The notes below the pieces were generated by a model. The model made no database searches and was not told where the DNA came from. It worked only from the letters and a program-made list of their open reading frames with translations. Shown piece after piece: positions 1 to 58,275 of a stretch of 64,000 nt of DNA (the first letter of the stretch is position 1; every line of letters begins with the position of its first letter). The stretch covers positions 1,099-65,098 of the forward strand of contig PKWU01000045.1 in the NCBI GenBank assembly GCA_003132145.1, written 5' to 3'. Origin of the DNA: Granulicella sp. GTDB taxonomy: Bacteria; Acidobacteriota; Terriglobia; Terriglobales; Acidobacteriaceae. A program made the position numbers and the translations under genes.

Positions 1-1369
1 GGGAGTTCTGGAAGGGACGGCTGGTGATGGGGACGCTGTTGAGGATCTCGTTCTGGTGGACGGCGGTGTGGCGGGTGAGGAGGGTCTGGGCGAGAGAGAT
101 TCCGATGGAGCCTCCGATGTTGCGCATGAGGTTGAAGAGGCCACTGGCGCCGCCTATCTGTTCGTTGCGCAGGGTGCCGTAGGCGGCGATGGAGATGGGG
201 ACGAAGACGAAGCTGAGGCCGAAGCCGGTGATCATGATGGGGATGAGCAGCGTGGTGGGGGAGATGTCCAGGGTGACGTTTCCGAAGTAGAGAGTGGTGA
301 GGCCGAAGATGAAGAAGCCGAAGGTGAGGAGATAGCGGGGATCGACCTTGTTGGAGAGGTAGCCGATGGCGGGCAGTCCGCAGATGGTGCCGAGGCCCCG
401 CGGGGCGACGACCAGGCCGGCGGTGAATGCGGTGTAGCCCAGCAGTTCCTGGTAGAAGAGGGGAAGGACGACGATGGTGGAGTAGATGGCGATGCCGAAG
501 AAGAAGATGAGCAGACATCCGACGCCGAAGTTGCGGTTTTTAAGGAGTTTGAGATCGACCATTGGTTCGTGCTTGCGCCAGGAGTGCCAGATGAAGAGAG
601 CAAAGCTGGTGACGAGGAAGAAGAAGGCCCAGCGGATCCAAGTGGCGCCGAACCAGTCTGACTCCTGTCCCTTGTCGAGGATGATCTGAAGCAGGCCTGT
701 CCATACGACGAGTGCTCCGAAGCCGAGGTTGTCGAATGCGGGGACGCGGGCGTTCTTGATGTAAGGCGGGTCGTGGACGAAGCGGTTGATCATGTAGAGG
801 GCGAGCAGGCCGACGGGGATGTTGATGTAGAAGGCGTATCGCCAGGAGTAAGTGTCGGTGAGCCATCCGCCGAGGGTGGGGCCGAGGACGGGGGCGACGA
901 CGACGCCGAAGCCGAAGAGCGCCATGGCGGCCCCGCGCTTGCGTGGCGGGAAAGACTCCAGCATGATGGCCTGGGAGAGCGGCTGAAGAGCGCCCCCGCC
1001 GGCGCCCTGGACGATGCGCGCGATCAGGAGGAAGGCGAGGGTGGGCGCGGAGCCGCAGGCGAAGCTGGCGGCGGTGAAGATGGCGACGCAGCTCATGAGG
1101 AAGCGCTTGCGGCCAAACTTGAGGGAGCACCAATTGCTGGCCGGGAGGACGATGGCGTTGGCGACCAGATAGCTGGTGAGCACCCAGGTTGCCTCGTCAG
1201 TGGTGGCGGAGAGCGAACCGGCGATGTAGGGCAGGGCGACCGAGGCGATGGCGGTGTCCAGCACCTCCATGAAGGTGGCGAGCATGACGGCCGCGGCGAT
1301 GAGCCAGGGATTGACCCCGGCGGTGACCTCGGCTGAGAGGTCGGGCGGTGCTGTAGCGGTTTCAGCCAT
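1..1369 (-). CDS. DHA2 (EmrB/QacA) family MFS efflux transporter, 3' end outside window
   Basis: Manual translation from ATG 1369: MAETATAPPDLSAEVTAGVNPWLIAAAVMLATFMEVLDTAIASVALPYIAGSLSATTDEATWVLTSYLVANAIV, the typical DHA2 N-terminus. Frame stays open to the window edge. Confidence 0.93.
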   Translation of the reverse strand, partial: MAETATAPPDLSAEVTAGVNPWLIAAAVMLATFMEVLDTAIASVALPYIAGSLSATTDEATWVLTSYLVANAIVLPASNWCSLKFGRKRFLMSCVAIFTAASFACGSAPTLAFLLIARIVQGAGGGALQPLSQAIMLESFPPRKRGAAMALFGFGVVVAPVLGPTLGGWLTDTYSWRYAFYINIPVGLLALYMINRFVHDPPYIKNARVPAFDNLGFGALVVWTGLLQIILDKGQESDWFGATWIRWAFFFLVTSFALFIWHSWRKHEPMVDLKLLKNRNFGVGCLLIFFFGIAIYSTIVVLPLFYQELLGYTAFTAGLVVAPRGLGTICGLPAIGYLSNKVDPRYLLTFGFFIFGLTTLYFGNVTLDISPTTLLIPIMITGFGLSFVFVPISIAAYGTLRNEQIGGASGLFNLMRNIGGSIGISLAQTLLTRHTAVHQNEILNSVPITSRPFQNS

Positions 1370-8309: not shown

Positions 8310-9488
8310 ATGAGTTTGTTTTTGCGAATTTTGTACTACGGTGCGCTGGCGGGGACGGGGACGTCGGCGATCTACTGCGCGATGGTGCTGGTGGGGACGC
8401 TGCGATTTGCACGGAGGAAGCGGCGGGAGGAGCGGACGCCGGTGGAGTACATGCCACCGGTGAGCGTGCTGAAGCCGCTGCACGGCGCGGAGCCGGACCT
8501 GGAAGAAAATCTGCGGGGATTTTTCGCGCTGGACTATCCAGAGTATGAGTTGCTGTTCTGCGCGCGACACGCGGACGATGCGGGATTGCAGATGGCGCGG
8601 CGGATTGCTGCGGAGCATCCGGAGGTTCGGGCGCGTTTCCTGACCTGCGGCGAGCCGCAGTTTCCCAATGCGAAGATGTGGTCGATGGCCATGCTGGCGC
8701 GGGCGGCGAGCTACGAGACGCTGGTGACGAGCGATGCGGATGCGCGCGTGTCGCCGGATTACCTGCGGCGGATGGTGCAGGAGCTGGCCGATCCGGGCCG
8801 CGAACTGGCTTCGTGCCTGTATGTGGGACGGACGACCGGCGGGTTGGCCGCGCAACTGGACGCGGTGGGCAAGAGCGTGGAGATGACGGGCGGAATCCTT
8901 GTCGCCGATATGATCGAGGGCGGGACGCGGTTTGCGCTGGGAGTGAGCATGGTGCTGCGGCGGGGCGCGTTCGAGAAGGCCGGAGGGGTCGAGGACCTGG
9001 GGCAGTACTACGCCGAGGACTTTGTGCTGGGACAGCGGCTGGCGGAGGCGGGGTTCGGCGTGAGAATGGCGAACTATGTGGTGCGGCTGATGGTGCTGCC
9101 ACAGGGGCTGAGGGCGTCGTTCCGCGACCAGTTGCGATGGATGAAGAGCACCCGGCGGTCGCGGCCGGCGGGACACCTGGGAACGGGGCTGACGTATGCG
9201 GTGCCGTTCGGACTGCTGGGGCTGGGGTGGGGGTTGCTGGCGGGGCATCCGTTGGCGGGCGCGCTGTGGCTTCTGGGGACGTGCGTGAATCGCTGGGCGA
9301 TGGCTGCGGGAGTGCTCGCGGCGATTGAGGACGAGCAGGCGGCGTGGCCTACGCTGATCTATCCGCTGAGGGACCTGCTGGGATTTTCGGTTTGGGTGGC
9401 GAGCTACATGGGAAGCACGATGGTGTATCACGGAGGATCGTACTCGCTGGGCGTGGGCGGGCGGTTCGAGCCGGTGGAGCGGAAGTAG
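8310..9488 (+). CDS. GT2 glycosyltransferase, HpnI/ceramide glucosyltransferase-like
   Basis: VSVLKPLHG, SDAD, AED and QLRW motifs; N- and C-terminal TM segments. Confidence 0.85.
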   Translation: MSLFLRILYYGALAGTGTSAIYCAMVLVGTLRFARRKRREERTPVEYMPPVSVLKPLHGAEPDLEENLRGFFALDYPEYELLFCARHADDAGLQMARRIAAEHPEVRARFLTCGEPQFPNAKMWSMAMLARAASYETLVTSDADARVSPDYLRRMVQELADPGRELASCLYVGRTTGGLAAQLDAVGKSVEMTGGILVADMIEGGTRFALGVSMVLRRGAFEKAGGVEDLGQYYAEDFVLGQRLAEAGFGVRMANYVVRLMVLPQGLRASFRDQLRWMKSTRRSRPAGHLGTGLTYAVPFGLLGLGWGLLAGHPLAGALWLLGTCVNRWAMAAGVLAAIEDEQAAWPTLIYPLRDLLGFSVWVASYMGSTMVYHGGSYSLGVGGRFEPVERK

Positions 9489-9569
9489 TTGTCAGTTGCA
9501 GGTTGCAGGTTGTGAGTTGTTTGAATTGCTACGCTTAGACAACTGGCAACTAACAACCTGTAACCGTCT

Positions 9570-11750
9570 TTAACGGTTGGTGAGGATGGATTTGCCGCCG
9601 GCGGAGGCGAGGGTGCGGACCGGGCCGAAGGGGCTGAGGCTCATGATGCGGGCCTCGGGGGTGTAGGTGAGGAGGAAGATTCGGCGGGGGCCAGACCAGA
9701 GGCGGTCGAGCGAGGCGTCGTCGTCGAAGACGGCGGGGGCGTCTGGCCAGAAGCTGCCGTACCAGGTGCCATTGACGCGGCCATTGACGAAGTGGACAGG
9801 CTGGCGGGTGTAGAAGAGCAGGGTGGAGCCGGAGGTGAGCTCGCCGTCGATCATAATGAGGTCGGAGGACGAGTTGCAGGTTGCAGGTTGCAGGTTGCAG
9901 GTTGACCGCTGGGCTTGCAGGATAGCTTCCGCGAGACCTTTGGAACCCATGGTGGGATAGAAGCGGACCAGGCCCTCGTGCATGCAGAGTAGGAGGCAGG
10001 CGGCGGCGGCGGCGACTATGAGGTTGGCGGCGTAGGTGCGGGCCGGACCGTTGCGGCGGGGGCGGCGCAGCAGGTAGGCGAGGGGGCCAAGGACGATGCA
10101 ACTGAGGCCGACGAAGACGAGTGGGGCGCGGAAGAGGCCCATGGCGCGGCCGGTGAGGTCGAAGAGATGGGCAAGGGAGAGGTTGTAGTCGCCGCCCTGA
10201 GAGAGGAGGGTCGCGATGTCGGTGTGGGGATCGGCGTGGGGCGCGGTGATGGCGAAGAAGAGCGCGACGGCGGCGAGGAGCGAGCAGAGCGGGCCGAGAA
10301 GCCAGCGGTGAGCGATGAGGGCGCTGCGCGCGGCGGGGCCGGAGGGGTCGCGGTCGGCGCGGGCGAGGAGGCCACCGGCCATCAGCGCGAGGGCGGGGAG
10401 GGCGGGCAGCGAGTAGTACTCCTGGCGCGCGGAGAAGGTGAAGAAGACGAGGACGAGGCCGGCCCAGAGGAGGAGGGTGAGGGCGGCTTCGCGGTCGATC
10501 CCACCCATGTCGCGATGAGACCGCGCCATGGATGGGGCACCCGGTAGACTCTGGTCTCCCACCCATTGCGATGAAGCTGCGATGGATGGGGCACCCGACC
10601 CCACCTTAGCCGCGATGAGACTGCGGCGAAGATGGGGCACCCGGATCTTCGAGTTTCGGAGGTCGCGGATGTGGCCCCGGATTGCGGCGGGGAGGAAGGC
10701 CGTCCAGGGAAAGAGCCAGAGGGCGGCGAGGAGCCAGAAGAGGAGGACGGGGACCTGACCGTAGTCGTGCGGGATGCGGCGCTGCAGGAAACGGGCGATG
10801 TGCTCGTTGTAGAGATAGAACCAGGCCCAGCCTGCGCGGGCGGGCAGGCCGAGGCCGGCGGGCAGCGCGATGGCTGGATTGCGCAGCGCGGCGAGGATGT
10901 GCCAGGGGGCGGCGATCAGGAGGAAGAGAAGCGTGGATGGGATGAGGTGAAGCTTCAAGAGCAGGCGGAGCTGGCGGGTGAGGGCGAGATAGAGCAGGAC
11001 AAAGGCGATGGGGAATAGGACGCCGATGAGTCCCTTGGTGAGGAGGTTGAGGGCGGTGACGGCGGCGAAGATCAAGCAAGGAACCAGGGCGGATCGGGCC
11101 TCTACGATCCCACCCATGTCGCGATGAGACTGCGCCATGGATGGGGCACCCGGGCCTTCGCGGTTGGCGTGGATGCGGTCGAGGGCGATGAGGAAGGCAT
11201 GGACGGCGAGGGTCATCCAGAGGCAGATGACGATGTCCGGGATGAAGAAGCGGGTGTAGAGGAAGGGGCCGATGCAGGTGGCGAGGGCGAGGGCGGAGTA
11301 GAGAGCGCCGCGGTCGGGGTGAGCGGCGGGAGAGACGGCACTGAAGAGGCGGAGGCCGAGGGCGTAGGTGGCGAGCAGAAGGGCGAGGGTGAGGAGAGCG
11401 AGGGGAAGGCGGGCGGCCCAGTCGTAGGGCCCGAAGAGGTGCATGGAGCCGGCGGCGAGCCAGTACATGAGGGGCGGCTTGTCGAAGAAACGGATGCCGT
11501 CGATATACGGGGTGACGTAGTCGTGGCGCAGGAGCATCTGGCGGGCGATCTCGATGTAGATGGAGTCGACGTCGTCGAGCAGGCCGGGGGTAAAGAGACA
11601 GCCGATGTGCAGGATGAACCATGCGAGGACAATCATCGCGATGGAGCGCGGGCGCCAACGGGTGGGCGCGGGCGGGGCGAGCCGATCTGCTAGCGGCTGG
11701 AGCGGCTGGCCGGGGGATGGATTGGCGGATTGGAGCGGGGGCTGAATCAC
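9570..11750 (-). CDS. ArnT/GT39-like membrane glycosyltransferase (paralog 1)
   Basis: FFDKPPLMYW, ARLP, LLTKG, APWH; GTG start overlaps the upstream TGA (GTGA). Confidence 0.88.
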   Translation of the reverse strand: MIQPPLQSANPSPGQPLQPLADRLAPPAPTRWRPRSIAMIVLAWFILHIGCLFTPGLLDDVDSIYIEIARQMLLRHDYVTPYIDGIRFFDKPPLMYWLAAGSMHLFGPYDWAARLPLALLTLALLLATYALGLRLFSAVSPAAHPDRGALYSALALATCIGPFLYTRFFIPDIVICLWMTLAVHAFLIALDRIHANREGPGAPSMAQSHRDMGGIVEARSALVPCLIFAAVTALNLLTKGLIGVLFPIAFVLLYLALTRQLRLLLKLHLIPSTLLFLLIAAPWHILAALRNPAIALPAGLGLPARAGWAWFYLYNEHIARFLQRRIPHDYGQVPVLLFWLLAALWLFPWTAFLPAAIRGHIRDLRNSKIRVPHLRRSLIAAKVGSGAPSIAASSQWVGDQSLPGAPSMARSHRDMGGIDREAALTLLLWAGLVLVFFTFSARQEYYSLPALPALALMAGGLLARADRDPSGPAARSALIAHRWLLGPLCSLLAAVALFFAITAPHADPHTDIATLLSQGGDYNLSLAHLFDLTGRAMGLFRAPLVFVGLSCIVLGPLAYLLRRPRRNGPARTYAANLIVAAAAACLLLCMHEGLVRFYPTMGSKGLAEAILQAQRSTCNLQPATCNSSSDLIMIDGELTSGSTLLFYTRQPVHFVNGRVNGTWYGSFWPDAPAVFDDDASLDRLWSGPRRIFLLTYTPEARIMSLSPFGPVRTLASAGGKSILTNR
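10499..10642. repeat. Three tandem family-B palindromic repeats (cccacc...gatggggcaccc) inside a CDS
   Basis: Units 10499-10542, 10557-10596 and 10599-10642; further copies at 11108-11151, 13263-13295 and 47593-47624. Confidence 0.88.
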
Positions 11751-13912
11751 GGCTGGCTCGGCGGTTCTTTCTGCGGAGTGAGATTGGTTTCGAGCGGACG
11801 GGCTGAATCGATGAACAAAGGGCGATCGGTGAGGAGGGCCTTGCCGGAGGTCTCCTGGAGGAGGATTGCGCGCGGGCCGAGGAGGCGATCGATGTCGTCG
11901 CGGCGTTCCAGCGGGACGAAGAGGAGTTTGCGCGGGCCGGAGCCCCACTGGGCGAGAAGCTGGGCGGGGGTTAGGAAGAGGGACTGCGCGTCGGGGAAGG
12001 AGGAGCCGAAGAGCATGGAGGAGGAGCGGCCATCGACCAGGAGCGCGGGACGGTCGAGGGGGCGATTCAAGTAGAAGGGGATGGATGAGCCGTAGGCCTG
12101 GTCGCCGTAGAGGAGGAGGGTGTTATCGCGGGAGATGGCGCCGGAGGATTCTAGCTGCTGGATCTTTGCGGCGAAGTTCTGCGAGGAGAGCATGGGGGCG
12201 AAGCGGACCAGCGCGATGTGCGCGGCGATGAGGAAGGCTGCGGAGGTGAGCGCGATGGCGGTGGTGGCGGCGACGTGGCGACGGCGGGCGCGGAGGTTCC
12301 ACGCGATGGCTGGGCCGATGGCAAAGGCGGCGAGGGCGAGCGAGGCGGGCAGGCGGAGCGCGGCGAAGCTGGGGGCGGTCAGGTCGAAGAGCGAGGACAT
12401 GGAGAGGGTGTAGTCGCCGACTCCGCGATGGGCGAGGAGTTCTCCGATGTCTGGCACGAAGGCGAGATGGCGCGAGGTATAGAGGCCGTAGGCGAGGGCC
12501 GCGGCGACGGCGAGGCCGATGGCGGTGAAGGCGGCATGGGCGAAGGTGATCCAGCGGCGGGAGGATTTTTCTGCGTCGTAGGTGAGTTCGGCGCGGGCGA
12601 GGGCGGCGGCGAGGAGCATCAGGAGCGGGAGGTACGCGGGGAAGGTGTAGTACTCCTGATTGGTGGAGAGGGAGAAGAAGAGGAGGACGAGGGCTGAGAA
12701 GAGGGTGAGGAGGAGGGTGGTGCGTAGAGATGGGGTGAGGTCATGAAAGCGTCCGCCAAGTTGGGAGATGCCGCGAGCTGAATACGGAGATTCTGACCCT
12801 TTGACAAGCTCAGGGTCAGAATGACGCTTCCATTTATTTCGGAACTCGGCAACGGCCACGGGGAGGAAGAGGCTCATGGGGAAGAGCCAGACGAGGTGGA
12901 GGCTCCAGTAGAGGTAGCTGGGGAGCTTGTTGTAGTCGCGCGGGATGCGGCGGCCGAGGAAGCGGAGGACGTGCTCGTTGATGAAGTAGAACCAGAAGAA
13001 GCCGTGGCCGTCGGCGGCTCCGGTGTTGCGCAGGCCGGCGAGGATGTGCCATGGGGCGGCGATGGCGAGGAAGAGGAGCGCGCCGGTGAAGGGCTTGAGG
13101 CGGCGCCAGTTGCGTAGTTCGCCGGTGAGGGCGAGGAAGAGGGCGGCGGTGGCGACGAGGAAGACGATGGCGACCAGGCCCTTGGTGAGGACGGCGAGGG
13201 CGAGGGCGGTCCACATAGCGTAGGGGTAGAGACGGGACTGCGCGGAGCTTTGTGGCGCTCCATCCCACATCTCAGAATCGAGATGTGGGGCACCCGCAGG
13301 TGAAGCAGATCCCTCCGCTTCGCTACGGGATGACAAACCTGGGGCGCTGCGGGATGACAAACCTGGGGCGCTACGGGATGACAACGACGGGGAAGCTGGA
13401 TTGAGGGATTGGAGGAGGCAGTAGAGGGATGTGGCGAGGAGGAGGGAGAGGAGGACGTCTGGGATGAAGACGCGGGTGAAGAGGAAGACACCGGCGGAGG
13501 TGAGGAGCCCGAGTCCAGTGTAGAGGGCGGCGCGCTCGCCAAAGGACTGACGCGCCCAGCGGACGCCGAGGAGCATCAGGAAGAGGACGCAGAGGGCCTG
13601 GGGAAGGTGCACGGCGAAGGCGTTAACGCCGAATGCGCGCAGGCTGGCGGCGACGATCCAGTAGGGGAGGGGGGCTTTCTCCAGATAGCGGACGTTGTTG
13701 ACGCGCAGGGTGACCCAGTCGCCGGAGAGGGCCATCTGGCGAGCGGCGTTGGCGTGGGTTCCGTCGGCGTCGTCCAGGACGGGCGGGGCGAAGAGCGAGG
13801 CGAAGAAGAGAATGAGCCAGAGCGCTCCCAGAAGAGAGAGGACGCGGGCGTGGCTGGAGGGGGCGGCGGCGCGGTGGGTGGTTGCGGGTTCGGCGGAGGC
13901 GGTGGTTGACAT
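11747..13912 (-). CDS. ArnT/GT39-like membrane glycosyltransferase (paralog 2)
   Basis: YLEKAPLPYW, VLTKG, APWH, QEYY; aligns colinearly with 9570-11750. Confidence 0.88.
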   Translation of the reverse strand: MSTTASAEPATTHRAAAPSSHARVLSLLGALWLILFFASLFAPPVLDDADGTHANAARQMALSGDWVTLRVNNVRYLEKAPLPYWIVAASLRAFGVNAFAVHLPQALCVLFLMLLGVRWARQSFGERAALYTGLGLLTSAGVFLFTRVFIPDVLLSLLLATSLYCLLQSLNPASPSLSSRSAPGLSSRSAPGLSSRSEAEGSASPAGAPHLDSEMWDGAPQSSAQSRLYPYAMWTALALAVLTKGLVAIVFLVATAALFLALTGELRNWRRLKPFTGALLFLAIAAPWHILAGLRNTGAADGHGFFWFYFINEHVLRFLGRRIPRDYNKLPSYLYWSLHLVWLFPMSLFLPVAVAEFRNKWKRHSDPELVKGSESPYSARGISQLGGRFHDLTPSLRTTLLLTLFSALVLLFFSLSTNQEYYTFPAYLPLLMLLAAALARAELTYDAEKSSRRWITFAHAAFTAIGLAVAAALAYGLYTSRHLAFVPDIGELLAHRGVGDYTLSMSSLFDLTAPSFAALRLPASLALAAFAIGPAIAWNLRARRRHVAATTAIALTSAAFLIAAHIALVRFAPMLSSQNFAAKIQQLESSGAISRDNTLLLYGDQAYGSSIPFYLNRPLDRPALLVDGRSSSMLFGSSFPDAQSLFLTPAQLLAQWGSGPRKLLFVPLERRDDIDRLLGPRAILLQETSGKALLTDRPLFIDSARPLETNLTPQKEPPSQP

Positions 13913-14145
13913 GAGAATTACTTGCTCTAACAGCATACGTTGTGGAATGTTGCGGGTGGGGTATTGTGGCAGGGGAAGAGGAATTTTTATTTTGCGGTTT
14001 GGACGTGAATTTGAGCCGGTGCGTTCTGTTGGAATGAACAGACAAAGGAAAATACAGGGGTCCTTCGCTACGCTCAGGATGACGACCTTAAACTGAATGA
14101 TGAACTGAATCGGAATGAGGATAGGCTTGGGGAGAGGGTTGAAGG

Positions 14146-15705
14146 ATGCTGACGTTTGCGGCGATTGACATTGGTTCCAACTCGGTTCGGCTGAAGATTG
14201 CGTCGGTGGAGCAGCACCGGCTGAGGACGCTGCACGAGGACCGCGAGGTGGTGCGGCTGGGGGAGAGCGTCTTTCAGACAGGGGTGATCTCTCCGGAGGC
14301 GATGGCGAACACGATCCGCGCGCTGAAGCGGTTTCAGAAGGCGGTGCAACTGCATGTGGCGGACCGGGTGCGGGTGGTGGCGACCAGCGCGATGCGGGAC
14401 GCGCGGAATGCGGCGGCGTTTACGGCGTGGGTGAAGTCGGCGACAGGATGGAATGTGGAGGTGATCTCGGGGCTGGAGGAGGGCCGGCTGATTCACCTGG
14501 GAGTGGTGACGCACGAGGTGGGAGCGCGGGGGCGGTGTCTGCTGATCGACCTGGGCGGGGGGAGCTGCGAGATTACATTCTCCGATGAGGGACGCATCCG
14601 CGAGATGGTGAGCCTGCCGCTGGGCGCGGTGCGATTGCAGCAGGAGTTTCTGCACGGCGATCCGCCGGCGAAGGAAGATGTGGCGCGGCTGAAGCAATAT
14701 ATCGGCCGCGAGCTTCGGAAGGCGGAGCGCAGGCTGGGGAATCCGCGGGTGGGGCTGGTGATTGCGACCTCGGGGACGGCGGCGGCGCTGGCCGAGGCGA
14801 GCGTGGCGCTGGCACGCAAGCTGCCAGTGCGGAAGGCGGCGCCGAAGAGATTTGTGCGCATCAAGCCGAGCGTGGCGAAGACGGCGGAGGTGCGCCGGCT
14901 GACGGAGCGGCTGGCGAAGATGAACAACGCGCAGCGGGCGTCGATTCCGGGGATCGGGACGCGGCGGTCGGAGATTGTGATTGGCGGGGCGATGGTCTAC
15001 ACGAGCCTGCTGGAGCGGATGGGGCTGAAGGGGTTTCGCTACTCTCCGCTGGGGCTGAAGGACGGGATCCTGGCGCAGATGCTGGCGGATGTGGACCTGC
15101 GCGCGTCGGTGCACAGGAAGATTGAGAGCGAGCGGTGGGAGGGCGTGCTGGAGGTGTGCAAGCGATACGGCGTGGATACGAAGAAGGCCGAGCCGGTGCG
15201 CCAGCACGCGGTGCAACTTTATGACGAGCTGGCGCGGGTGCATGAGCTTCCGGTGGAGTACAGGCTGTGGCTGGAGTCCGCGGCCATGATGCAGGACGTG
15301 GGCAAGTACATGAACCACCAGGGGCACAACAGGCACACACAGTACATTGTGGCGAACTCGGAGATCTTTGGATTCTCGCCGGAGCAGCGGGCGGTGGTGG
15401 GAGCGATTGCGCGCTATATGGGCAAGAGCCGCCCGGATGCGGTGGATCGCGTGATGCGCGCGGTGCCCATCGAGCAGCATGGCAATGTGATGCGTTCGGT
15501 GGTGTTGCTGCGGCTGGCTCTGGCTCTGAACCAGGACCGCGTCAGCGCGGCGGTGCGGATGCGGGCGCGGGTCTACCCCAAGCGGGTGCTGCTGGAGCTG
15601 GCGCCGGGACGCGGCGGAGCGGAGCTGGAGGCGTGGTCGCTGCGCAAAGAGGCGGACTACTTCCGGGAGGTCTTTCGGCGGGACCTGGCGGTGGAGGTGG
15701 CGTAG
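14146..15705 (+). CDS. ppx: Ppx/GppA exopolyphosphatase
   Basis: AAIDIGSNS, ATSAMRDA, EEGRL, DLGGGSCE; C-terminal HD-like domain. Confidence 0.93.
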   Translation: MLTFAAIDIGSNSVRLKIASVEQHRLRTLHEDREVVRLGESVFQTGVISPEAMANTIRALKRFQKAVQLHVADRVRVVATSAMRDARNAAAFTAWVKSATGWNVEVISGLEEGRLIHLGVVTHEVGARGRCLLIDLGGGSCEITFSDEGRIREMVSLPLGAVRLQQEFLHGDPPAKEDVARLKQYIGRELRKAERRLGNPRVGLVIATSGTAAALAEASVALARKLPVRKAAPKRFVRIKPSVAKTAEVRRLTERLAKMNNAQRASIPGIGTRRSEIVIGGAMVYTSLLERMGLKGFRYSPLGLKDGILAQMLADVDLRASVHRKIESERWEGVLEVCKRYGVDTKKAEPVRQHAVQLYDELARVHELPVEYRLWLESAAMMQDVGKYMNHQGHNRHTQYIVANSEIFGFSPEQRAVVGAIARYMGKSRPDAVDRVMRAVPIEQHGNVMRSVVLLRLALALNQDRVSAAVRMRARVYPKRVLLELAPGRGGAELEAWSLRKEADYFREVFRRDLAVEVA

Positions 15706-21257: not shown

Positions 21258-22106
21258 ATGAAGCTGGTGACGTTTGTGGAGGGCGGCAAGGAACCGAGGC
21301 CGGGGTTGGTGGTCGAGGGCGGAGTCGTCGATCTGGGCGCGGAGGGGTTCGAGGACGCGATTGCGTTTCTTGGCGCTTCGAGGAGCGTGCAGGCGGATGT
21401 GGCGCGGGCTGCCGTTCAATCGAGAGCGAGGATTGCGCTGGATGGGGTGCGGCTGCTGGCTCCGGTGCCGAATCCGCCTCGCATCTTCGGCATTGGGGTG
21501 AACTACGCCGAGCACGCGGCCGAATCGGGGACAAAGATGCGCGATGTGCCGACGGTGTTTATTGTGCTGTCGTCGGCAGTAGTGGGGCCGGGCGCGGATG
21601 TGGTGTTGCCGCCGAACAGCTCGATGGTGGACTACGAGGCGGAGCTGGCGGTGGTGATCGGGAAGGCGGGGCACAGGATCGCGGCGAGCCAGTGGGAGGA
21701 ACACGTCTTCGGGTACACGATGATGAACGATGTGAGCGCGCGCGACGTGCAGCGGGCGACGAGTCAGTGGTCGCTGGGAAAGAGCTTCCCGACGTTTGCG
21801 CCGATGGGGCCGTGGGTGGTGAGCAGAGACGAGATTACCGATCCGCATCGGTTGGGGATTTCGTTGACGATTGGCGGGGAGCGGTTGCAGGACTCGAACA
21901 CGAGCCAGATGATCTACAAGATTCCGGCGCTGATCGAGTACCTGTCGGGGATTGTGCCGCTCGAGGTTGGGGACGTGATCAGCACGGGAACGCCCGCCGG
22001 GGTGGGGATGGGACGGACACCGCAGCGCTGGCTGAAGGCTGGGGAAGAGATGATACTTGCGATTGATGGGATTGGGGAGCTGCGGAATCCGGTGGTGGGG
22101 GAGTAG
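21258..22106 (+). CDS. Fumarylacetoacetate hydrolase family protein
   Basis: GVNYAEH, DYEAEL, NDVSARD, GKSF, GDVISTGTPAGVG. Confidence 0.93.
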   Translation: MKLVTFVEGGKEPRPGLVVEGGVVDLGAEGFEDAIAFLGASRSVQADVARAAVQSRARIALDGVRLLAPVPNPPRIFGIGVNYAEHAAESGTKMRDVPTVFIVLSSAVVGPGADVVLPPNSSMVDYEAELAVVIGKAGHRIAASQWEEHVFGYTMMNDVSARDVQRATSQWSLGKSFPTFAPMGPWVVSRDEITDPHRLGISLTIGGERLQDSNTSQMIYKIPALIEYLSGIVPLEVGDVISTGTPAGVGMGRTPQRWLKAGEEMILAIDGIGELRNPVVGE

Positions 22107-22329
22107 AGGGCTCGGCGTTGGGGTAGAACAGACAACGGCAGAAGCAGATTCCTCCGCTGCGCTGCGGAATGACAAACAAGAGAGCAGACAGCGGCAGAAG
22201 CAGATTCCTCCGCTGCGCTGCGGAATGACAAACAAGAGAACAGACAGCGGCGAAATACGGAGATTCTGGGTGCGCCAGAATGACGACTCCTGGGGTTTCG
22301 CCGGGACGACGAACTTCAGTGGATTGCGT

Positions 22330-53411: not shown

Positions 53412-55691
53412 ATGAACTACAAGCGGTATTGGTGGGCGCTGGCGATTGTCATCGTCGGTTCGTTTATGGTTCTGGGCGGCGAGGGCCGCAAGATGATCGG
53501 CGGAGCGCCGCCCCTTGCCGATGTCTACACCACGGACGGACAGCTTCTCTTCACCGGCAGTTCCATCACGGATGGACAGGGCGTGTGGCAGTCCATCGGC
53601 GGGCAGGAGATCGGCACCGTCTGGGGCCATGGGGCGTACGTTGCTCCCGACTGGAGCGCCGATTGGCTGCATCGCGAATCCGAGTTCCTACTCAACAGAT
53701 GGGCGATCCGCGACGGCGCGCCCGACTTTGCCGCGCTCAATCTGGATCAGCAGGCCATACTCAAGGCGCGGCTGATTCGCGATATGCGAACCAATACCTA
53801 CGACGCATCGACCAATCGCGTCACCATCGACGCCGATCGCGCGGCTTCTTTCACGCAGCTTGCAGCCTATTATTCCAATGTCTTCGCCAGCGGACGCTCC
53901 GAGTATGCCATTCCGCGCGGCGCTTTGACCAACCTTCAGAAGCAGCGCCAGCTTGCGGCATTCTTCTGGTGGACATCATGGGCGGCCAGCACCCAGCGGC
54001 CCGACTCGACCACCACCTATACCAACAACTGGCCACATGAGCCACTGATTGCCAATGAACTCACCTCTGGCGCGTTGCTCTGGAGCATTCTTAGCATTGT
54101 CGGTCTGCTGGCCGGAATCGGCGGCATGGTCTGGTGGTACGCATCGCAGGAGAAGGCCCTTGTTCACGGCCCCTATCCGGCAACAGATCCCTTCCTGGCA
54201 GTGAAGGCGACACCCTCGCAACGCGCCACGATGAAGTACTTCTTCGTGGTCGTGATCCTGTGGGGCGTGCAGATTGCGATGGGCATCCTGACCGCTCACT
54301 ATGCAGTTGAAGGGAGCGGATTTTATGGCTTCCCACTGGACCGCTATCTGCCCTATGCAGTGACCCGAACGTGGCATCTACAACTCGCTATCTTTTGGAT
54401 CGCCACATCGTGGCTGGCAACGGGCCTCTATGTTGGTCCGGCAGTGACCGGACACGAGCCGAAGTATCAACGGCTCGGCGTCAATGTGCTCTTTGGCGCA
54501 TTGATTCTTGTAGTCGGCGGCTCACTCGCCGGCGAGTGGATGGGCATCCAGCAGCGACTGGGCAATATGTGGTTCTGGTTCGGAAGCCAGGGGTACGAAT
54601 ACGTCGATCTTGGAAGATTCTGGCAGATATTACTCTTCATCGGTCTGGTTCTCTGGCTGGCGTTGATGGTGGCTGCGCTCAAGCCTGCGCTGGTTCGCAA
54701 GAGCGAGGACCGCGCCCTGCTCACACTCTTTCTCATCTCCAGCATCGCGATCCCGCTCTTCTATGCCGCTGGCCTCATGTACGGGCAACGCAGCAATCTC
54801 GTCACCGCCGAGTACTGGCGCTGGTGGGTTGTTCATCTCTGGGTCGAAGGCTTCTTTGAAGTATTTGCAACCGTGGTGATCGCGTTTCTCTTCACGCGAC
54901 TCAAGCTGATCGAGATTCGCACTGCAACCAAGGCCGCTCTTTTTTCGACGACGATATTCCTTTCCGGCGGAATCATCGGCACCTTCCATCACCTGTACTT
55001 TGCAGGCGCAACTCCGGCGGTGATCGCTCTGGGCGCAATCTTCAGCGCGTTCGAGGTTGTGCCGCTCACGCTGGTCGGGTACGAGGCGTGGGAGAACATT
55101 CGTCTTGCACAGCCGATGCAGAAGGCGCCATGGATCGCGAACTACAAGTGGCCGATCTATTTCTTCGTCTCGGTCGCCTTCTGGAACCTGGTTGGAGCGG
55201 GCCTCTTCGGCTTCCTCATCAATCCACCGGTCGCGCTTTACTATGTGCAGGGGTTGAACCTCACTCCCCTTCACGGGCACACTGCGCTCTTCGGCGTGTA
55301 CGGAATGCTCGGGCTGGGGCTCACGCTCTTCTGCATGAGGGCGATGGGGCCGGAACGACCGTGGAAGGAGGGGGCGCTCAAGTTTTCCTTCTGGTCTCTC
55401 AATATCGGCTTGAGCCTCATGGTTCTCCTCAGCCTGTTGCCGGTCGGCCTTCTCCAGGCGTGGGCATCGATCCAGTACGGCACCTGGTACGCGCGTTCTG
55501 CGGAGTTTCTGCAAACGGGACACATGCAGGCTCTACGCTGGATGCGTGTCCCCGGCGATGTTCTGTTTGCCGCTGGAGCCGCGCTCTTCGCTTGGTTCAT
55601 CCTCGGCTTGCTGACCGGCCATTCCTACGACGATACAAAGTCCACTGAAGGAGATACATCGTTGCACGATATGAACAATCGGCTCGCGTAG
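53412..55691 (+). CDS. norB: Quinol-dependent nitric oxide reductase (qNor)
   Basis: GTVWGHGAYVAPDW, RTWHLQ, WVVHLWVEGFFE, GTFHH, HGHTALFGVYG, WMRVPGD. Confidence 0.96.
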   Translation: MNYKRYWWALAIVIVGSFMVLGGEGRKMIGGAPPLADVYTTDGQLLFTGSSITDGQGVWQSIGGQEIGTVWGHGAYVAPDWSADWLHRESEFLLNRWAIRDGAPDFAALNLDQQAILKARLIRDMRTNTYDASTNRVTIDADRAASFTQLAAYYSNVFASGRSEYAIPRGALTNLQKQRQLAAFFWWTSWAASTQRPDSTTTYTNNWPHEPLIANELTSGALLWSILSIVGLLAGIGGMVWWYASQEKALVHGPYPATDPFLAVKATPSQRATMKYFFVVVILWGVQIAMGILTAHYAVEGSGFYGFPLDRYLPYAVTRTWHLQLAIFWIATSWLATGLYVGPAVTGHEPKYQRLGVNVLFGALILVVGGSLAGEWMGIQQRLGNMWFWFGSQGYEYVDLGRFWQILLFIGLVLWLALMVAALKPALVRKSEDRALLTLFLISSIAIPLFYAAGLMYGQRSNLVTAEYWRWWVVHLWVEGFFEVFATVVIAFLFTRLKLIEIRTATKAALFSTTIFLSGGIIGTFHHLYFAGATPAVIALGAIFSAFEVVPLTLVGYEAWENIRLAQPMQKAPWIANYKWPIYFFVSVAFWNLVGAGLFGFLINPPVALYYVQGLNLTPLHGHTALFGVYGMLGLGLTLFCMRAMGPERPWKEGALKFSFWSLNIGLSLMVLLSLLPVGLLQAWASIQYGTWYARSAEFLQTGHMQALRWMRVPGDVLFAAGAALFAWFILGLLTGHSYDDTKSTEGDTSLHDMNNRLA

Positions 55692-55790
55692 GCAGCATAT
55701 AGCCGTAATGCACCTGTACCAGCGCGGCGCCTTTCATGGAACACTCCCCACGAAGGCGCCGCGTGCAACCGCATCGACAAGGAGAGCCAA

Positions 55791-56213
55791 ATGAAACGCT
55801 ACTATAGTGAAGGTGAGGCACTTACCAGGCTTCCCGAATTGGATCAGCCATTGCTTCAATCCAATCTACCCGCAGAGATCGAGAATCTACGACTCGCAGA
55901 CTCGTGGCAACGAGGGACAGGGCGGAGCTCCAAGACACTGTTGAATTCTCCAGCTTGTGGCATTTTGCTAATCGCCATGAAGCAGAACACGGAGACGAAA
56001 GAACATCGCGTAGATGGAAGGATCACGATTCACACCCTCGTCGGCCATATAAGGTTGAGGTTGCCCAATCAAATGGTTGAACTTCCTGCAGGCCATCTGC
56101 TGATGCTCGATCGCGGTATTGCGCATGACGTTCAGGCGGTGGATGAGAGTGTCTTCCTGCTCACTATGTGCTGGCATGGTGGCGCCGCCAGAACAGCTCC
56201 TGACAACGTATAG
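55791..56213 (+). CDS. Cupin-fold protein
   Basis: EHRVDGRITIHTLVG, HDVQAVDESVFLLT. Confidence 0.75.
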   Translation: MKRYYSEGEALTRLPELDQPLLQSNLPAEIENLRLADSWQRGTGRSSKTLLNSPACGILLIAMKQNTETKEHRVDGRITIHTLVGHIRLRLPNQMVELPAGHLLMLDRGIAHDVQAVDESVFLLTMCWHGGAARTAPDNV

Positions 56214-56283
56214 GAGGCGCGCGCATTGCGGCTTGCCGCGTGCAACAGAATCCAACAAGTAGCTTCACTCAAAGGAGAAGTTC

Positions 56284-56607
56284 ATGGACTACACATTCCT
56301 GGCCAACCTGCAGACGGAGTTTGCGCTGCCTGAAAAAGGCATCCTGAGCCGCGTGCTGCACAAGGACGAACACGCCAACGTCACGCTCTTCGGATTCTCC
56401 GCTGGAGAGGAACTCTCTGGGCACTCATCGCCGACTCCGGCTGTTCTCTACTTCATCGAAGGAGAGGCAGAAGTCCAGTTGGGAGAGGATAAGGTCAACG
56501 CCCAGCCAGGCTCATTCGTCTACATGCCTCCCATGCTACCTCACGGCATCTCCGCTAAAACGGCGGTTCGAATGCTGCTCGTTCAGATGAAGGCTCCTGC
56601 GCGCTAA
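56284..56607 (+). CDS. Cupin-domain protein
   Basis: FSAGEELSGH, LPHGISA. Confidence 0.8.
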   Translation: MDYTFLANLQTEFALPEKGILSRVLHKDEHANVTLFGFSAGEELSGHSSPTPAVLYFIEGEAEVQLGEDKVNAQPGSFVYMPPMLPHGISAKTAVRMLLVQMKAPAR

Positions 56608-56631
56608 CCTGAGCGCGTCGTTCGCCGCGCC

Positions 56632-58275
56632 TCACGAGTCTTGCCGTGGCGCGCGTTGAAAGCTGCGGCTCCGCTCCGATTCTCGCTCGACCGCACGCCT
56701 CCGTCCCGACAATAACTCCTGCGCGCTGATGCTCCCGCAGATGCGTCCGCTCTCGCGATCGATCACAGGCATGTTCATCACCCGCGTGGTTGCCATCTCC
56801 TCTGCAACGGCGCGGCAGGTCTCATCCGCATAGGCGAAGATGTCGGGCAGCGTCGCTTGCAGGAGGCTCATCGCGAAGTCTTCGATGGACCCTGGCAGTT
56901 CCGTCATCACCTCCGCAACGATCACCGTTTCTAACGGGTCAACACCATACTCGCGCGACAGGTGATAGCCACGACGGCTGAGCTTTTCCGTCAGGATCGA
57001 TCGCGGCATAATCAGCGACGTCACAAGATAGGACGCAGTACACGCAAGCGCCAGCGGCAGCAGGGCCGGCAAAGCATGGGTCAACTCCAGCGAGAACAGA
57101 ATTGCCGTCAGCGGCACGCCCAGCGAGCCGGAGAGCATCGCCCCCATCGCCATCAACGCCCACAGAGCCTGTGTCTCGCCCGACATGTGCGCCAGCCGCG
57201 CCAGCGTCTCGCCAATGGCCGCGCCGATCATCAGCAACGGTGCCAGCACGCCGCCCGACGTTCCCGAACTCAGCGAAAAGGCCCACATCAGCGACTTGGC
57301 TACCAACAGTCCGAGTAGTAGACCCAGTGGCGCATTTCCGCGCAGCAGTTCTGCGATATTGTCGTACCCAACGCCGAGTCCGCGCGGAAAGAAGAATCCC
57401 CCCACTCCGATCCCGATCCCACCGATCGCAGGCCACCACATCCAATGCACACGCAGCCGACCGCAGAGATGCTCGAATGCGTCCTCGAAGCCATACATCA
57501 TGCGGCTCAGCCCAGCCGCCGCGAAGCCGACCAGTATCCCCAATGGGCCAGCAACCAGCATCGTCGGCCATAAGTGAATCGCCGTGTGCATCTCCACCGG
57601 GAAGAGCGGGCCAGCTCCAAGCCAACTGATGCGCAACGCGCCCGCCATGATGCTGGCCACCGCCACCGGAATCAGCGAGCGCGGTCGCCACTCGAAGAGC
57701 AGCAGCTCGACGGCCAGAAGAATTGCAGCCATCGGTGCCGCAAACGTCGCCGACATTCCCGCCGCCGCGCCTGCTACCAGTAGCGTAGTTCGTTCTGCAT
57801 CGGTCAGATGAAGCCACTGCGCCACCAGCGAGCCGAACGCTCCGCCGGTCATAATGATCGGCCCTTCCGCGCCAAACGGACCACCTGAGCCAATCGCGAT
57901 CGCGGCCGAAAGAGGCTTTAATATCGCGACCAAGGGGTCTATACGCGCGCCTCGTAGCAGGATCGCCTCAATTGCCTCTGGGATTCCGTGACCGCGAATC
58001 TTGTCCGATCCATAGTGCGCGATGAATCCCACCAGAAGCCCGCCAATAATGGGAACCAGCGGCATGATCCATGGAGAGAGGGGCGAACCGGCAGGCCCAA
58101 CCATCGCCAGGCTCAGCCGATGGTAGTAGAACAGGTTTGTCATGAGAGCAATCGCCCTCAGGAGCAGGACAGCCAAAGCTGCCGCGCCTATACCAATAAA
58201 GAGCGCTACCCCACTCAGCAGCCATACCCTGCGATTCACCGTAAAGTCGCACAGTGCGGATGGTTGTGATCTCAT
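56632..58275 (-). CDS. CLC-family chloride/proton channel with CBS-like tail
   Basis: GHGIPE, GSGGPFGAEGP, FEW, GTSGGVLAP. Confidence 0.92.
   Translation of the reverse strand: MRSQPSALCDFTVNRRVWLLSGVALFIGIGAAALAVLLLRAIALMTNLFYYHRLSLAMVGPAGSPLSPWIMPLVPIIGGLLVGFIAHYGSDKIRGHGIPEAIEAILLRGARIDPLVAILKPLSAAIAIGSGGPFGAEGPIIMTGGAFGSLVAQWLHLTDAERTTLLVAGAAAGMSATFAAPMAAILLAVELLLFEWRPRSLIPVAVASIMAGALRISWLGAGPLFPVEMHTAIHLWPTMLVAGPLGILVGFAAAGLSRMMYGFEDAFEHLCGRLRVHWMWWPAIGGIGIGVGGFFFPRGLGVGYDNIAELLRGNAPLGLLLGLLVAKSLMWAFSLSSGTSGGVLAPLLMIGAAIGETLARLAHMSGETQALWALMAMGAMLSGSLGVPLTAILFSLELTHALPALLPLALACTASYLVTSLIMPRSILTEKLSRRGYHLSREYGVDPLETVIVAEVMTELPGSIEDFAMSLLQATLPDIFAYADETCRAVAEEMATTRVMNMPVIDRESGRICGSISAQELLSGRRRAVERESERSRSFQRAPRQDS

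What the first reader, a model, noticed from the sequence alone, without database searches (positions are those of the whole stretch)
9570..13912. Two ArnT paralogs carry different translated palindromic repeats in the same two loops
Seen: in the loop before the TKG helix, paralog 1 has one family-B unit (11108-11151, GAPSMAQSHRDMGGI). Paralog 2 has, in that loop, a family-B variant plus a family-A repeat with 24-bp expansions (13263-13385, LSSRSAPG x2...GAPHLDSEMWD). In the loop before the QEYY helix, paralog 1 has three family-B units (10499-10642) and paralog 2 has a CGTC-tagged hairpin (12788-12826, RHSDPELVKGSES). All keep the frame. Established: Rickettsia palindromic elements insert in frame into proteins. 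Inference: independent insertions accumulate in two permissive loops, so selfish repeats are adding peptide sequence to envelope enzymes.
Basis: partly seen in the sequence, partly recalled or inferred. Interest (0 to 1): 0.8.

Follow-up and report, generated by a model that had tools for sequence, protein, structure and literature searches.

The report
Mobile hairpin repeats translated inside glycosyltransferases
Two neighbouring membrane sugar-transferase genes of a peat acidobacterium carry small mobile hairpin repeats (REP elements) in frame in the same two cytoplasmic loops; this selfish-DNA habit is already known in other bacteria, and here the inserts come and go between close strains.

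Summary
Two tandem, translationally coupled genes for ArnT-like membrane glycosyltransferases (GT-C fold; P1 9570-11750, P2 11747-13912, minus strand, 33% identical) each carry dispersed hairpin repeats, in frame, in the same two loops.

- **Repeats are genome-wide.** They fall into two superfamilies, about 326 copies in 3.17 Mb. One REP-associated tyrosine transposase (RAYT) gene elsewhere in the genome is flanked by inverted B-type copies.
- **Loops are cytoplasmic.** Alignment to the ArnT structure 5EZM places them between TM4-TM5 and TM8-TM9, across the membrane from the active site.
- **Inserts turn over fast.** About 100 close homologues show empty sites, one to four units, or other families and frames. 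Proteins 99.6% identical elsewhere differ by a 40-residue insert.
- **Genes are functional.** dN/dS is 0.19-0.34, and matching metatranscriptome contigs exist.
- **Not special to these enzymes.** 26-54 other copies sit in frame in genes, including ValRS, HisRS, PEP carboxylase, RecJ, MnmG and GlmM.

"ArnT" is too strong; these are ArnT-like enzymes with unknown substrates. In-frame REPs are a known kind (Rickettsia RPEs, Di Nocera 2013), so this is a new member. One point stands out: B-type copies are read in one frame in 22 of 24 cases.

The parts
9570..11750 (-). P1: ArnT-like GT-C glycosyltransferase, 726 aa. The GTG start at 11750 overlaps the P2 stop by 4 nt.
   Evidence: ORF. Pfam PMT_2, E 2.4e-10. 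The start matches the database protein P0001 and syntenic loci. Profile hit to ArnT 5EZM, E 3e-20. Foldseek best hit 5EZM, E 5e-15.
11747..13912 (-). P2: paralogous ArnT-like GT-C glycosyltransferase, 721 aa as called in databases. The frame stays open up to 13936.
   Evidence: 33% identity to P1 over the full length; P0121.
11105..11153 (-). P1 loop 1 (cytoplasmic, TM4-TM5): one family-B REP hairpin, translated as GAPSMAQSHRDMGGI.
   Evidence: Folds at -22.1 kcal/mol. Absent from L054 and from many homologues.
10600..10643 (-). P1 loop 2 (cytoplasmic, TM8-TM9), unit a: B-type REP read as RVPHLRRSLIAAKVG, a different frame from units b and c.
   Evidence: 100% identical copies on C60, C6, C5 and C53. 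Folds at -26.8 kcal/mol, z -3.96.
10557..10597 (-). P1 loop 2, unit b: B-type REP read as GAPSIAASSQWVG.
   Evidence: E 6e-12.
10499..10543 (-). P1 loop 2, unit c: B-type REP read as GAPSMARSHRDMGG.
   Evidence: This is the only unit that L053 also carries. L054 and L055 have empty sites.
13264..13296 (-). P2 loop 1: B2 hairpin (GGGTGCCCCACATCTCGATTCTGAGATGTGGG) read as GAPHLDSEMWD.
   Evidence: 55 copies in the genome. Folds at -18.9 kcal/mol, z -3.1.
13302..13338 (-). P2 loop 1: family-A core (GTTTGTCATCCCGTAGCGAAGCGGAGGGATCTGCTTC) read as LSSRSEAEGSAS.
   Evidence: about 102-112 copies. Close relatives carry A-type units in another frame, VILSAAKNPRISP.
13321..13392 (-). P2 loop 1: three tandem 24-nt units (LSSRSAPG x2 plus the start of the A core). 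This is an in-frame expansion of the tagged end of the A repeat.
   Evidence: family D14: 100%, 96% and 83% identity.
12786..12826 (-). P2 loop 2: family-C hairpin starting CGTCATTCTGACCC, read as RHSDPELVKGSES. It sits where most orthologues have about 60 extra, partly hydrophobic, residues.
   Evidence: 53 copies. Folds at -16.9 kcal/mol, z -3.2. The closest clade shares it.

Best explanation
The inserts are copies of small non-autonomous mobile hairpin repeats (REP/REPIN-type elements) that abound in this genus of peat and soil Acidobacteriaceae.

**Inferred mechanism.** The elements spread through the genome, the B superfamily most likely through a REP-associated tyrosine transposase (RAYT) acting on single-stranded hairpin DNA. 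They then grow locally by tandem duplication.

**Inferred selection filter.** Insertions into genes are removed unless three conditions hold:
- the added length is a multiple of three;
- the frame read has no stop codon;
- the added peptide lands where the protein tolerates it.

**Why these sites.** In these two GT-C enzymes the tolerated sites are the cytoplasmic loops TM4-TM5 and TM8-TM9, across the membrane from the periplasmic active site. The inserts there are translated as short, probably disordered, Gly/Ala/Pro/Ser-rich peptides.

**Shown here:**
- the repeats belong to dispersed families;
- a RAYT gene is flanked by inverted B-type copies;
- the loops lie on the cytoplasmic side, by homology to ArnT;
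- orthologous sites show presence/absence, copy-number, family and frame differences, down to near-identical strains;
- both host genes are under purifying selection.
For: **Repeat families.** The four families have 116 (B), 55 (B2), 102 (A) and 53 (C) copies after merging overlapping hits. The B core pattern occurs in 18 of 25 genomes of the genus and in none of 16 genomes of the sister family, with zero control hits.

**Transposase link.** The gene at G000:C16:~121-640 scores 114.6 bits against the NCBIfam REP_Tyr_transpos cut-off of 80. It is flanked by inverted B-type hairpins at C16:15-51 (+) and 639-676 (-).

**Loop position.** P1 D134 aligns with ArnT D158, and P1 K201 with ArnT K203. 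Both ArnT residues are periplasmic, so the loop between them is cytoplasmic (PMC7801869). The AF2 model has pLDDT 38-53 in both loops, and its best structural match is ArnT 5EZM.

**Turnover at the orthologous sites:**
- loop 1 ranges from 15 to 85 residues and loop 2 from 17 to 84 among 52 homologues;
- L054 and L055 have empty loop-2 sites, L053 has one unit, and the window has three;
- P0030 and P0034 are 99.6% identical in the core but differ by 40 residues in loop 1;
- the third paralogue, on C6, has short loops with no repeats.

**Host genes are functional.** dN/dS is 0.19-0.34. RNA contigs are 100% identical over unique parts of P1. The same sequence occurs in independent peat metagenomes.

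**Genome-wide habit.** 54 of 314 testable copies (26 under strict thresholds) lie in open, coding-like frames. All nine hosts checked are real enzymes.

**Copy age.** Intragenic copies fold as well as intergenic ones and are no more diverged.
Against: - No transposition has been observed. No target-site signature was defined.
- The RAYT link is shown only for a B-like subfamily whose loop differs from the loop of the copies in P1. Families A and C have no identified transposase.
- B lacks the GTAG tag typical of RAYT-mobilised REPs.
- Copy numbers of identical tandem units in short-read metagenome assemblies are unreliable.
- No RNA contig of this strain spans a repeat/unique junction, and there are no proteomic data. 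Translation of the inserts is therefore inferred from intact frames under purifying selection.
- The genome-wide count of in-gene copies rests on my own crude codon-usage gene caller.
Confidence: 0.85

Rival explanations
1. The repeats arrive and change not by transposition but by ectopic recombination or gene conversion with other REP copies and by replication slippage at hairpins. On this view, once a loop holds one REP it becomes a nest that keeps being remodelled.
For: - Same-family units occur in tandem arrays of one to four.
- The tagged end of the A repeat has expanded in tandem 24-nt units.
- Different families sit side by side in the same loop.
- REPs cluster elsewhere in the genome.
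Against: - A first arrival at an empty site is still needed. Empty sites and singly occupied sites both exist.
- A RAYT flanked by B-type copies is present.
- The two routes do not exclude each other.
Confidence: 0.3
2. The inserts are kept because they are useful. Either the mRNA hairpins tune translation or stability while a polytopic membrane protein is being inserted, or the added cytoplasmic peptides have a regulatory or binding role.
For: - B-type copies are read in one frame in 22 of 24 cases.
- Both paralogues and most homologues carry something in these loops.
- Intragenic hairpins fold as stably as intergenic ones.
Against: - Content differs in family, frame, copy number and presence between near-identical proteins.
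- Fully empty alleles, and a repeat-free third paralogue, exist.
- The same elements sit in unrelated cytosolic enzymes at domain boundaries.
- No peptide or hairpin is conserved at the site.
Confidence: 0.08
3. The inserts are artefacts: repeats misassembled in a metagenome-assembled genome, or the genes are decaying pseudogenes.
For: The genome has 89 contigs, and short-read contigs break at the repeats.
Against: - Independent assemblies from JGI, ENA and NCBI give in-frame inserts at the same loops.
- Contigs from other samples reproduce 10343-10597 exactly.
- The ORFs are full length with conserved catalytic residues and dN/dS of 0.19-0.34.
- Matching RNA contigs exist.
Confidence: 0.03

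Closest known systems
Intragenic GTAG/CGTC REPs (Di Nocera, De Gregorio and Rocco 2013, BMC Genomics 14:522, PMC3733652)
   Same: - Short palindromic repeats of 30-50 nt, dispersed and mostly intergenic, with a minority in frame inside known genes.
- They occur as single units, dimers or clusters that encode 20-80 residues.
- Hosts often include tRNA synthetases and DNA repair genes.
- They are associated with tyrosine transposases.
   Different: - That paper reports no REP families for Acidobacteriaceae. It mentions only transposases flanked by terminal inverted repeats.
- The B superfamily here carries a GGTGCCCCA...GGGTGGG foot rather than GTAG.
- New here: repeated occupation of the same two loops by at least four families, turnover between strains, and a strong frame bias.
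Rickettsia palindromic elements (RPE; Ogata et al. 2000, as summarised in PMC3733652 and PMC10969869)
   Same: Selfish palindromic DNA inserted in frame in functional genes, tolerated because the added peptide sits in a permissive part of the protein.
   Different: - RPEs are about 100-150 bp, are restricted to Rickettsia, and have no known transposase.
- The elements here are 33-49 nt, lie in a free-living peat bacterium, and are linked to a RAYT.
- They are highly polymorphic among close relatives.
REP/REPIN-RAYT systems (REPtrons) of E. coli and Pseudomonas
   Same: A single-copy RAYT gene flanked by inverted copies of a hairpin repeat that is dispersed in about 100 or more copies. Stem variation is compensated.
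   Different: - Classical REPs are almost entirely extragenic and GTAG-tagged.
- Here 8-17% of recognisable copies are intragenic and translated.
- The units work as single hairpins, not inverted doublets.
ArnT (lipid A 4-amino-4-deoxy-L-arabinose transferase, PDB 5EZM/5F15)
   Same: Closest solved structure and sequence relative of both host proteins. GT-C fold, with counterparts of D55/E56, K85, D158 and K203.
   Different: Far below the NCBIfam ArnT equivalog score, no arn operon nearby, and about 150 extra residues. The substrate is unknown.

Membership tests
REP/REPIN elements mobilised by RAYT | Short imperfect palindrome that folds into a stable hairpin | tested here: met
   B, B2 and C fold at -17 to -27 kcal/mol with z -1.65 to -3.96. 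142 hairpins pair at 10 or more of 12 stem positions, against 15 in a shuffled genome. Family A is only weakly palindromic.
REP/REPIN elements mobilised by RAYT | Many dispersed copies, mostly extragenic | tested here: met
   326 merged copies in 3.17 Mb. 260 of 314 testable copies are not in an open, coding-like frame.
REP/REPIN elements mobilised by RAYT | A RAYT gene flanked by inverted copies of the repeat | tested here: met
   The C16 gene scores 114.6 bits against the REP_Tyr_transpos cut-off of 80. B-type hairpins lie at C16:15-51 (+) and 639-676 (-). This is met for the B superfamily only. A second RAYT on C2 is flanked by unrelated hairpins. Nothing was found for A or C.
REP/REPIN elements mobilised by RAYT | GTAG (or CGTC) tetranucleotide tag at one end | tested here: not met
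   B copies begin CGGGTGCCCCA and end GGGTGGGAT, with no conserved GTAG. The C unit in P2 begins CGTC, but most A and C copies begin TGTC.
REP/REPIN elements mobilised by RAYT | Mobility: presence/absence at orthologous sites | tested here: met
   Empty, single-unit and triple-unit alleles are seen at DNA level. Near-identical proteins have different loops. The enzymatic mechanism cannot be tested here.
Rickettsia palindromic elements (RPE) | Sequence families of about 100-150 bp specific to Rickettsia | tested here: not met
   Units are 33-49 nt and the B core pattern is restricted to one acidobacterial genus. The resemblance is analogy, not membership.
Rickettsia palindromic elements (RPE) | In-frame insertion in functional genes at structurally permissive sites | tested here: met
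   The frames are intact with dN/dS of 0.19-0.34. The loops are cytoplasmic and have low pLDDT.
ArnT (lipid A L-Ara4N transferase) | GT-C fold with PMT_2 domain, and closest structure ArnT | tested here: met
   E 3e-20; 5EZM, E 5e-15, TM-score 0.58 normalised to the target.
ArnT (lipid A L-Ara4N transferase) | Counterparts of D55/E56, K85, D158 and K203 | tested here: met
   P1 D21-D22, K53 (FFDKPP), D134 (FIPD) and K201 (LTKG) align to them. They are invariant in 66 homologues.
ArnT (lipid A L-Ara4N transferase) | Score above the NCBIfam ArnT equivalog cut-off | tested here: not met
   74.6 and 63.4 bits against a cut-off of 567.
ArnT (lipid A L-Ara4N transferase) | arn operon context | tested here: not met
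   The neighbours are Ppx-GppA, a GT2 (Glyco_transf_21), MerR and DnaJ.

The most novel reading that the evidence does not exclude
The REP families of this genus may be adapted to being translated, and these loops may be true landing pads.

- **Frame bias.** B-type copies are read almost always in the GAPS frame (22 of 24), although the other two sense frames are also open. This suggests the element has been shaped to encode a harmless flexible peptide.
- **Targeting.** Insertion may be aimed at hairpins already present, so a coding loop becomes a self-renewing nest of REPs, like a BIME cluster, that differs between strains.
- **Consequence.** Mobile hairpins would then be a routine generator of loop-length variation in acidobacterial proteins, not an occasional accident.
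Probability: 0.25. Interest if true: 0.7.

Novelty: new member of a known kind. Interest (0 to 1): 0.45.

Why it matters
- **Scale outside Rickettsia.** A free-living, abundant peat and soil lineage tolerates translated selfish DNA on a scale previously stressed mainly for Rickettsia. About 8-17% of recognisable REP copies lie in genes, including essential ones.
- **Map of permissive sites.** The inserts mark permissive sites in GT-C membrane enzymes (cytoplasmic loops TM4-TM5 and TM8-TM9). This is useful for tagging or engineering them.
- **Annotation and alignment.** Length and loop differences among acidobacterial orthologues can come from repeat turnover, not from functional divergence. 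Repeat-derived peptides (GAPS...GG, VILSAAKNP...) will create spurious similarity between unrelated proteins.
- **A testable question.** The frame bias gives a way to ask whether mobile elements evolve to be harmless when translated.

Tried and rejected
- **First AF2 run.** Using only close homologues (A1), it gave a useless model (pLDDT 45.6). A second run adding the P2 family gave pLDDT 62.5 and pTM 0.60, enough for a fold match but not for loop detail.
- **Rfam.** The scan of 9000-14500 found no RNA family.
- **DNA contigs from peat runs.** Logan contigs break at every repeat, so copy-number variation within the population could not be read from them.
- **RNA contigs.** They cover unique parts of P1 and the P1/P2 junction but do not span a repeat/unique junction in this strain. 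One 255-nt contig of a related allele does reach the loop-1 unit.
- **Motif classification on a tree.** My regex classification of loop states gave false positives on short loops. I replaced it with loop lengths and pairwise comparison.
- **First structure-based regex.** It had a wrong 3' end and matched no better than a shuffle. It was corrected.
- **My first topology count.** Counting hydrophobic helices put D134 on the wrong side of the membrane. The published ArnT assignment corrected it.
- **Literature.** Searches found no report of in-frame REPs in Acidobacteria.
- **Rejected reading: the loops are ancestral sequence and the source of the repeats.** Empty alleles and hundreds of copies elsewhere rule this out.

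Full report
**What is there**

The region holds two tandem genes on the minus strand.
- P1 runs from 9570 to 11750 (726 aa). Its GTG start overlaps the P2 stop by 4 nt, as in database calls and syntenic loci.
- P2 runs from 11747 to 13912 (721 aa as called; the frame is open to 13936).
- Both match Pfam PMT_2 (E 2.4e-10 and 7.6e-13). They are 33% identical over their full length.

The closest solved relative is ArnT of Cupriavidus metallidurans.
- The profile search hits 5EZM at E 3e-20.
- An AF2 model (pLDDT 62.5, pTM 0.60) matches 5EZM and 5F15 at E 5e-15.
- However, the proteins score only 75 and 63 bits against the NCBIfam ArnT equivalog cut-off of 567.
- The neighbours are Ppx, a GT2, MerR and DnaJ, not arn genes.

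I therefore call them ArnT-like GT-C enzymes with unknown substrates.

- **P1 loop 1:** one B unit at 11105-11153.
- **P1 loop 2:** three B units at 10600-10643, 10557-10597 and 10499-10543. The first is read as RVPHLRRSLIAAKVG. The other two are read in the GAPS frame.
- **P2 loop 1:** a B2 hairpin (13264-13296), a family-A core (13302-13338) and three tandem 24-nt units (13321-13392, D14).
- **P2 loop 2:** a hairpin starting with CGTC at 12786-12826.

B, B2 and C fold into stable hairpins of -17 to -27 kcal/mol. A is a weak palindrome. No Rfam family matches.

**The units belong to genome-wide families**

Iterated nhmmer on the window's own genome (3.17 Mb, 89 contigs, 61.8% GC) gave these copy counts after merging overlapping hits, 326 in all:

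| Family | Copies |
|---|---|
| B | 116 |
| B2 | 55 |
| A | 102 |
| C | 53 |

- B and B2 share the foot GGTGCCCCA...(G)TGGG. Their inner stems vary with compensating changes.
- A and C share (T/C)GTCAT(T/C)C...GAATC.
- A structure-based count finds 142 B-type hairpins, against 15 in a shuffled genome.
- The B core pattern occurs in 18 of 25 genomes of the genus, from 0 to 69 copies each. It occurs in none of 16 genomes of the sister family, and the control pattern gave zero hits.

**Link to a transposase**

The genome has two genes that pass the NCBIfam cut-off for REP-associated tyrosine transposase (114.6 and 116.5 bits against 80).
- The gene on contig C16 is flanked by inverted B-type hairpins at C16:15-51 (+) and 639-676 (-). 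This is the classic REPtron layout.
- The gene on C2 is flanked by unrelated hairpins.
- No transposase is linked to families A or C.
- B lacks the GTAG tag of classical RAYT substrates.

**Where the loops lie**

In the alignment to ArnT, P1 D134 (FIPD) matches D158 and P1 K201 (LTKG) matches K203.
- PMC7801869 places D158 in the periplasmic loop before TM4 and K203 in the periplasmic loop after TM5. Loop 1 is therefore the cytoplasmic TM4-TM5 loop.
- Loop 2 follows TM8 and precedes the helix that leads to QEYY, the ArnT Y345 region. It is therefore the cytoplasmic TM8-TM9 loop.
- The same paper notes that eukaryotic relatives also have long insertions in the TM8-TM9 loop.
- Both loops have low confidence in the model (pLDDT 38-53).

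Both loops are thus on the opposite side of the membrane from the active site.

**Comparative test**

The P2-P1 pair is conserved across the genus.

*Sixteen genus-level orthologues.*
- None has the three-unit P1 loop-2 insert, and most have a short loop.
- Loop 1 is empty in four. In others it carries different B-type units (GAPSFASFAKG, GAPHLASEMWE, GAPSIAHSAMGG). Their DNA is plainly GGGTGCCCCA...GGGTGGG.

*Fifty-two closer P1 homologues (73-91% identity).*
- Loop 1 ranges from 15 to 85 residues and loop 2 from 17 to 84.
- Content varies: empty sites, one to four GAPSMAQSHRDMGG units, RVPHLRRSLIAAKVG, GAPHLASEMWDE, and A-type units read as VILSGAKNPRISP or ILSAAKDPDE.

*P2 homologues.* They behave in the same way.

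*DNA level.* L054 and L055 have empty loop-2 sites, L053 has one unit and the window has three.

*Near-identical proteins.*
- P0030 and P0034 are 99.6% identical outside the loops but differ by 40 residues in loop 1.
- P0005 and P0006 differ by one B unit. That second case could be an assembly effect.

*Third paralogue.* The copy on contig C6 has short, repeat-free loops at both sites.

Several families and frames at one site require several independent events.

In P2 loop 2 the C unit is shared by the closest clade. It replaces about 60 partly hydrophobic residues that most orthologues have.

**The genes are alive**

- dN/dS is 0.19-0.24 for P1 and 0.26-0.34 for P2.
- The ligand-binding residues are invariant in 66 homologues.
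- The same sequence is present in at least 20 peat metagenome runs from many different studies. Contigs from two independent studies reproduce 10343-10597 and 10343-10566 exactly.
- Metatranscriptome contigs are 100% identical over unique parts of P1 and over the P1/P2 junction.
- Translation of the inserts themselves is inferred, not shown.

**Not special to these enzymes**

I used a codon-usage score trained on long ORFs.
- 54 of 314 testable copies lie in an open frame with coding-like flanks. 26 pass strict thresholds.
- Nine hosts were checked against Pfam and all are real enzymes: a DegT aminotransferase, MnmG, RecJ, acetolactate synthase, HisRS, GlmM, an S9 peptidase, ValRS and PEP carboxylase. 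Where the position could be compared with the Pfam domain limits, the insert often sits at or near a domain boundary.
- carB carries one as well.
- Intragenic copies fold as well as intergenic ones and are no more diverged. This fits recent arrival and fast turnover.

**Frame bias**

Among intragenic B-type copies lying in the gene's orientation, 22 of 24 are read with GCC of GGTGCCCCA as a codon, the GAPS frame. The other two sense frames of the consensus are also free of stop codons. This is the one feature that goes beyond a routine case. It rests on my own gene caller and needs a proper census.

**Comparison with what is known**

- In-frame palindromic repeats are established for Rickettsia RPEs and for GTAG/CGTC REPs in several phyla. 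Clusters there encode up to 82 residues, often in tRNA synthetases and repair genes (PMC3733652; PMC10969869).
- I found no paper reporting this for Acidobacteria.
- Earlier notes of this scan describe the same habit in other acidobacterial genomes. Those notes are leads, not evidence.

**Verdict**

This is a well-supported new member of a known kind. It shows unusually clear evidence for repeated occupation of two permissive cytoplasmic loops and for turnover between strains.

Noticed in passing
G000 genome-wide (in-frame copies; examples at window 10499-10597 and 11105-11153): Strong reading-frame bias. 22 of 24 intragenic B-type copies in gene orientation are read in the GAPS frame, although all three sense frames of the consensus are open. 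A-type copies favour the LSSRS.AEGSAS frame (8 of 11).
   Followed up: partly
window 9872-9904 and 9487-9519: A tandem heptamer array (CAACCTG x4, period 7) is translated inside the C-terminal part of P1 as STCNLQPATCN. A related array lies in the spacer just downstream of P1. The genome has 14 such arrays. The empty loop 1 of relatives (ATSNQQPATSNSS) is also built from CAACCAG-like heptamers.
   Followed up: partly
G000:C16:1-1200 (outside the window): A REPtron: a RAYT gene (169 aa) flanked by inverted B-type hairpins. The flanking subfamily (8 copies) carries a TAG stop in the GAPS frame, so it could not be read through in the frame that intragenic copies use.
   Followed up: partly
G000:C2:~21300-22300 (outside the window): A second RAYT, flanked by a different hairpin family (GGGGCGCGGCTTTAGCCGCGCC...). 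The carB gene next to it carries an antisense family-A unit in frame (KYGDSSPAAQNDKPG).
   Followed up: no
window 12786-12900 (P2 loop 2): Most P2 orthologues have about 60 extra residues here, including two hydrophobic stretches. The window's clade has the family-C hairpin instead. A repeat may therefore sit at the scar of a deletion.
   Followed up: partly
window 11747-11750: The P2 stop and the P1 GTG start overlap by 4 nt (GTGA). This layout is conserved in syntenic metagenome loci and suggests translational coupling of the two paralogues.
   Followed up: partly
G000:C6:~55500-57300 (outside the window): A third GT-C paralogue (49% identical to P1 in the N-terminal half) has short, repeat-free loops at both sites.
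   Followed up: yes
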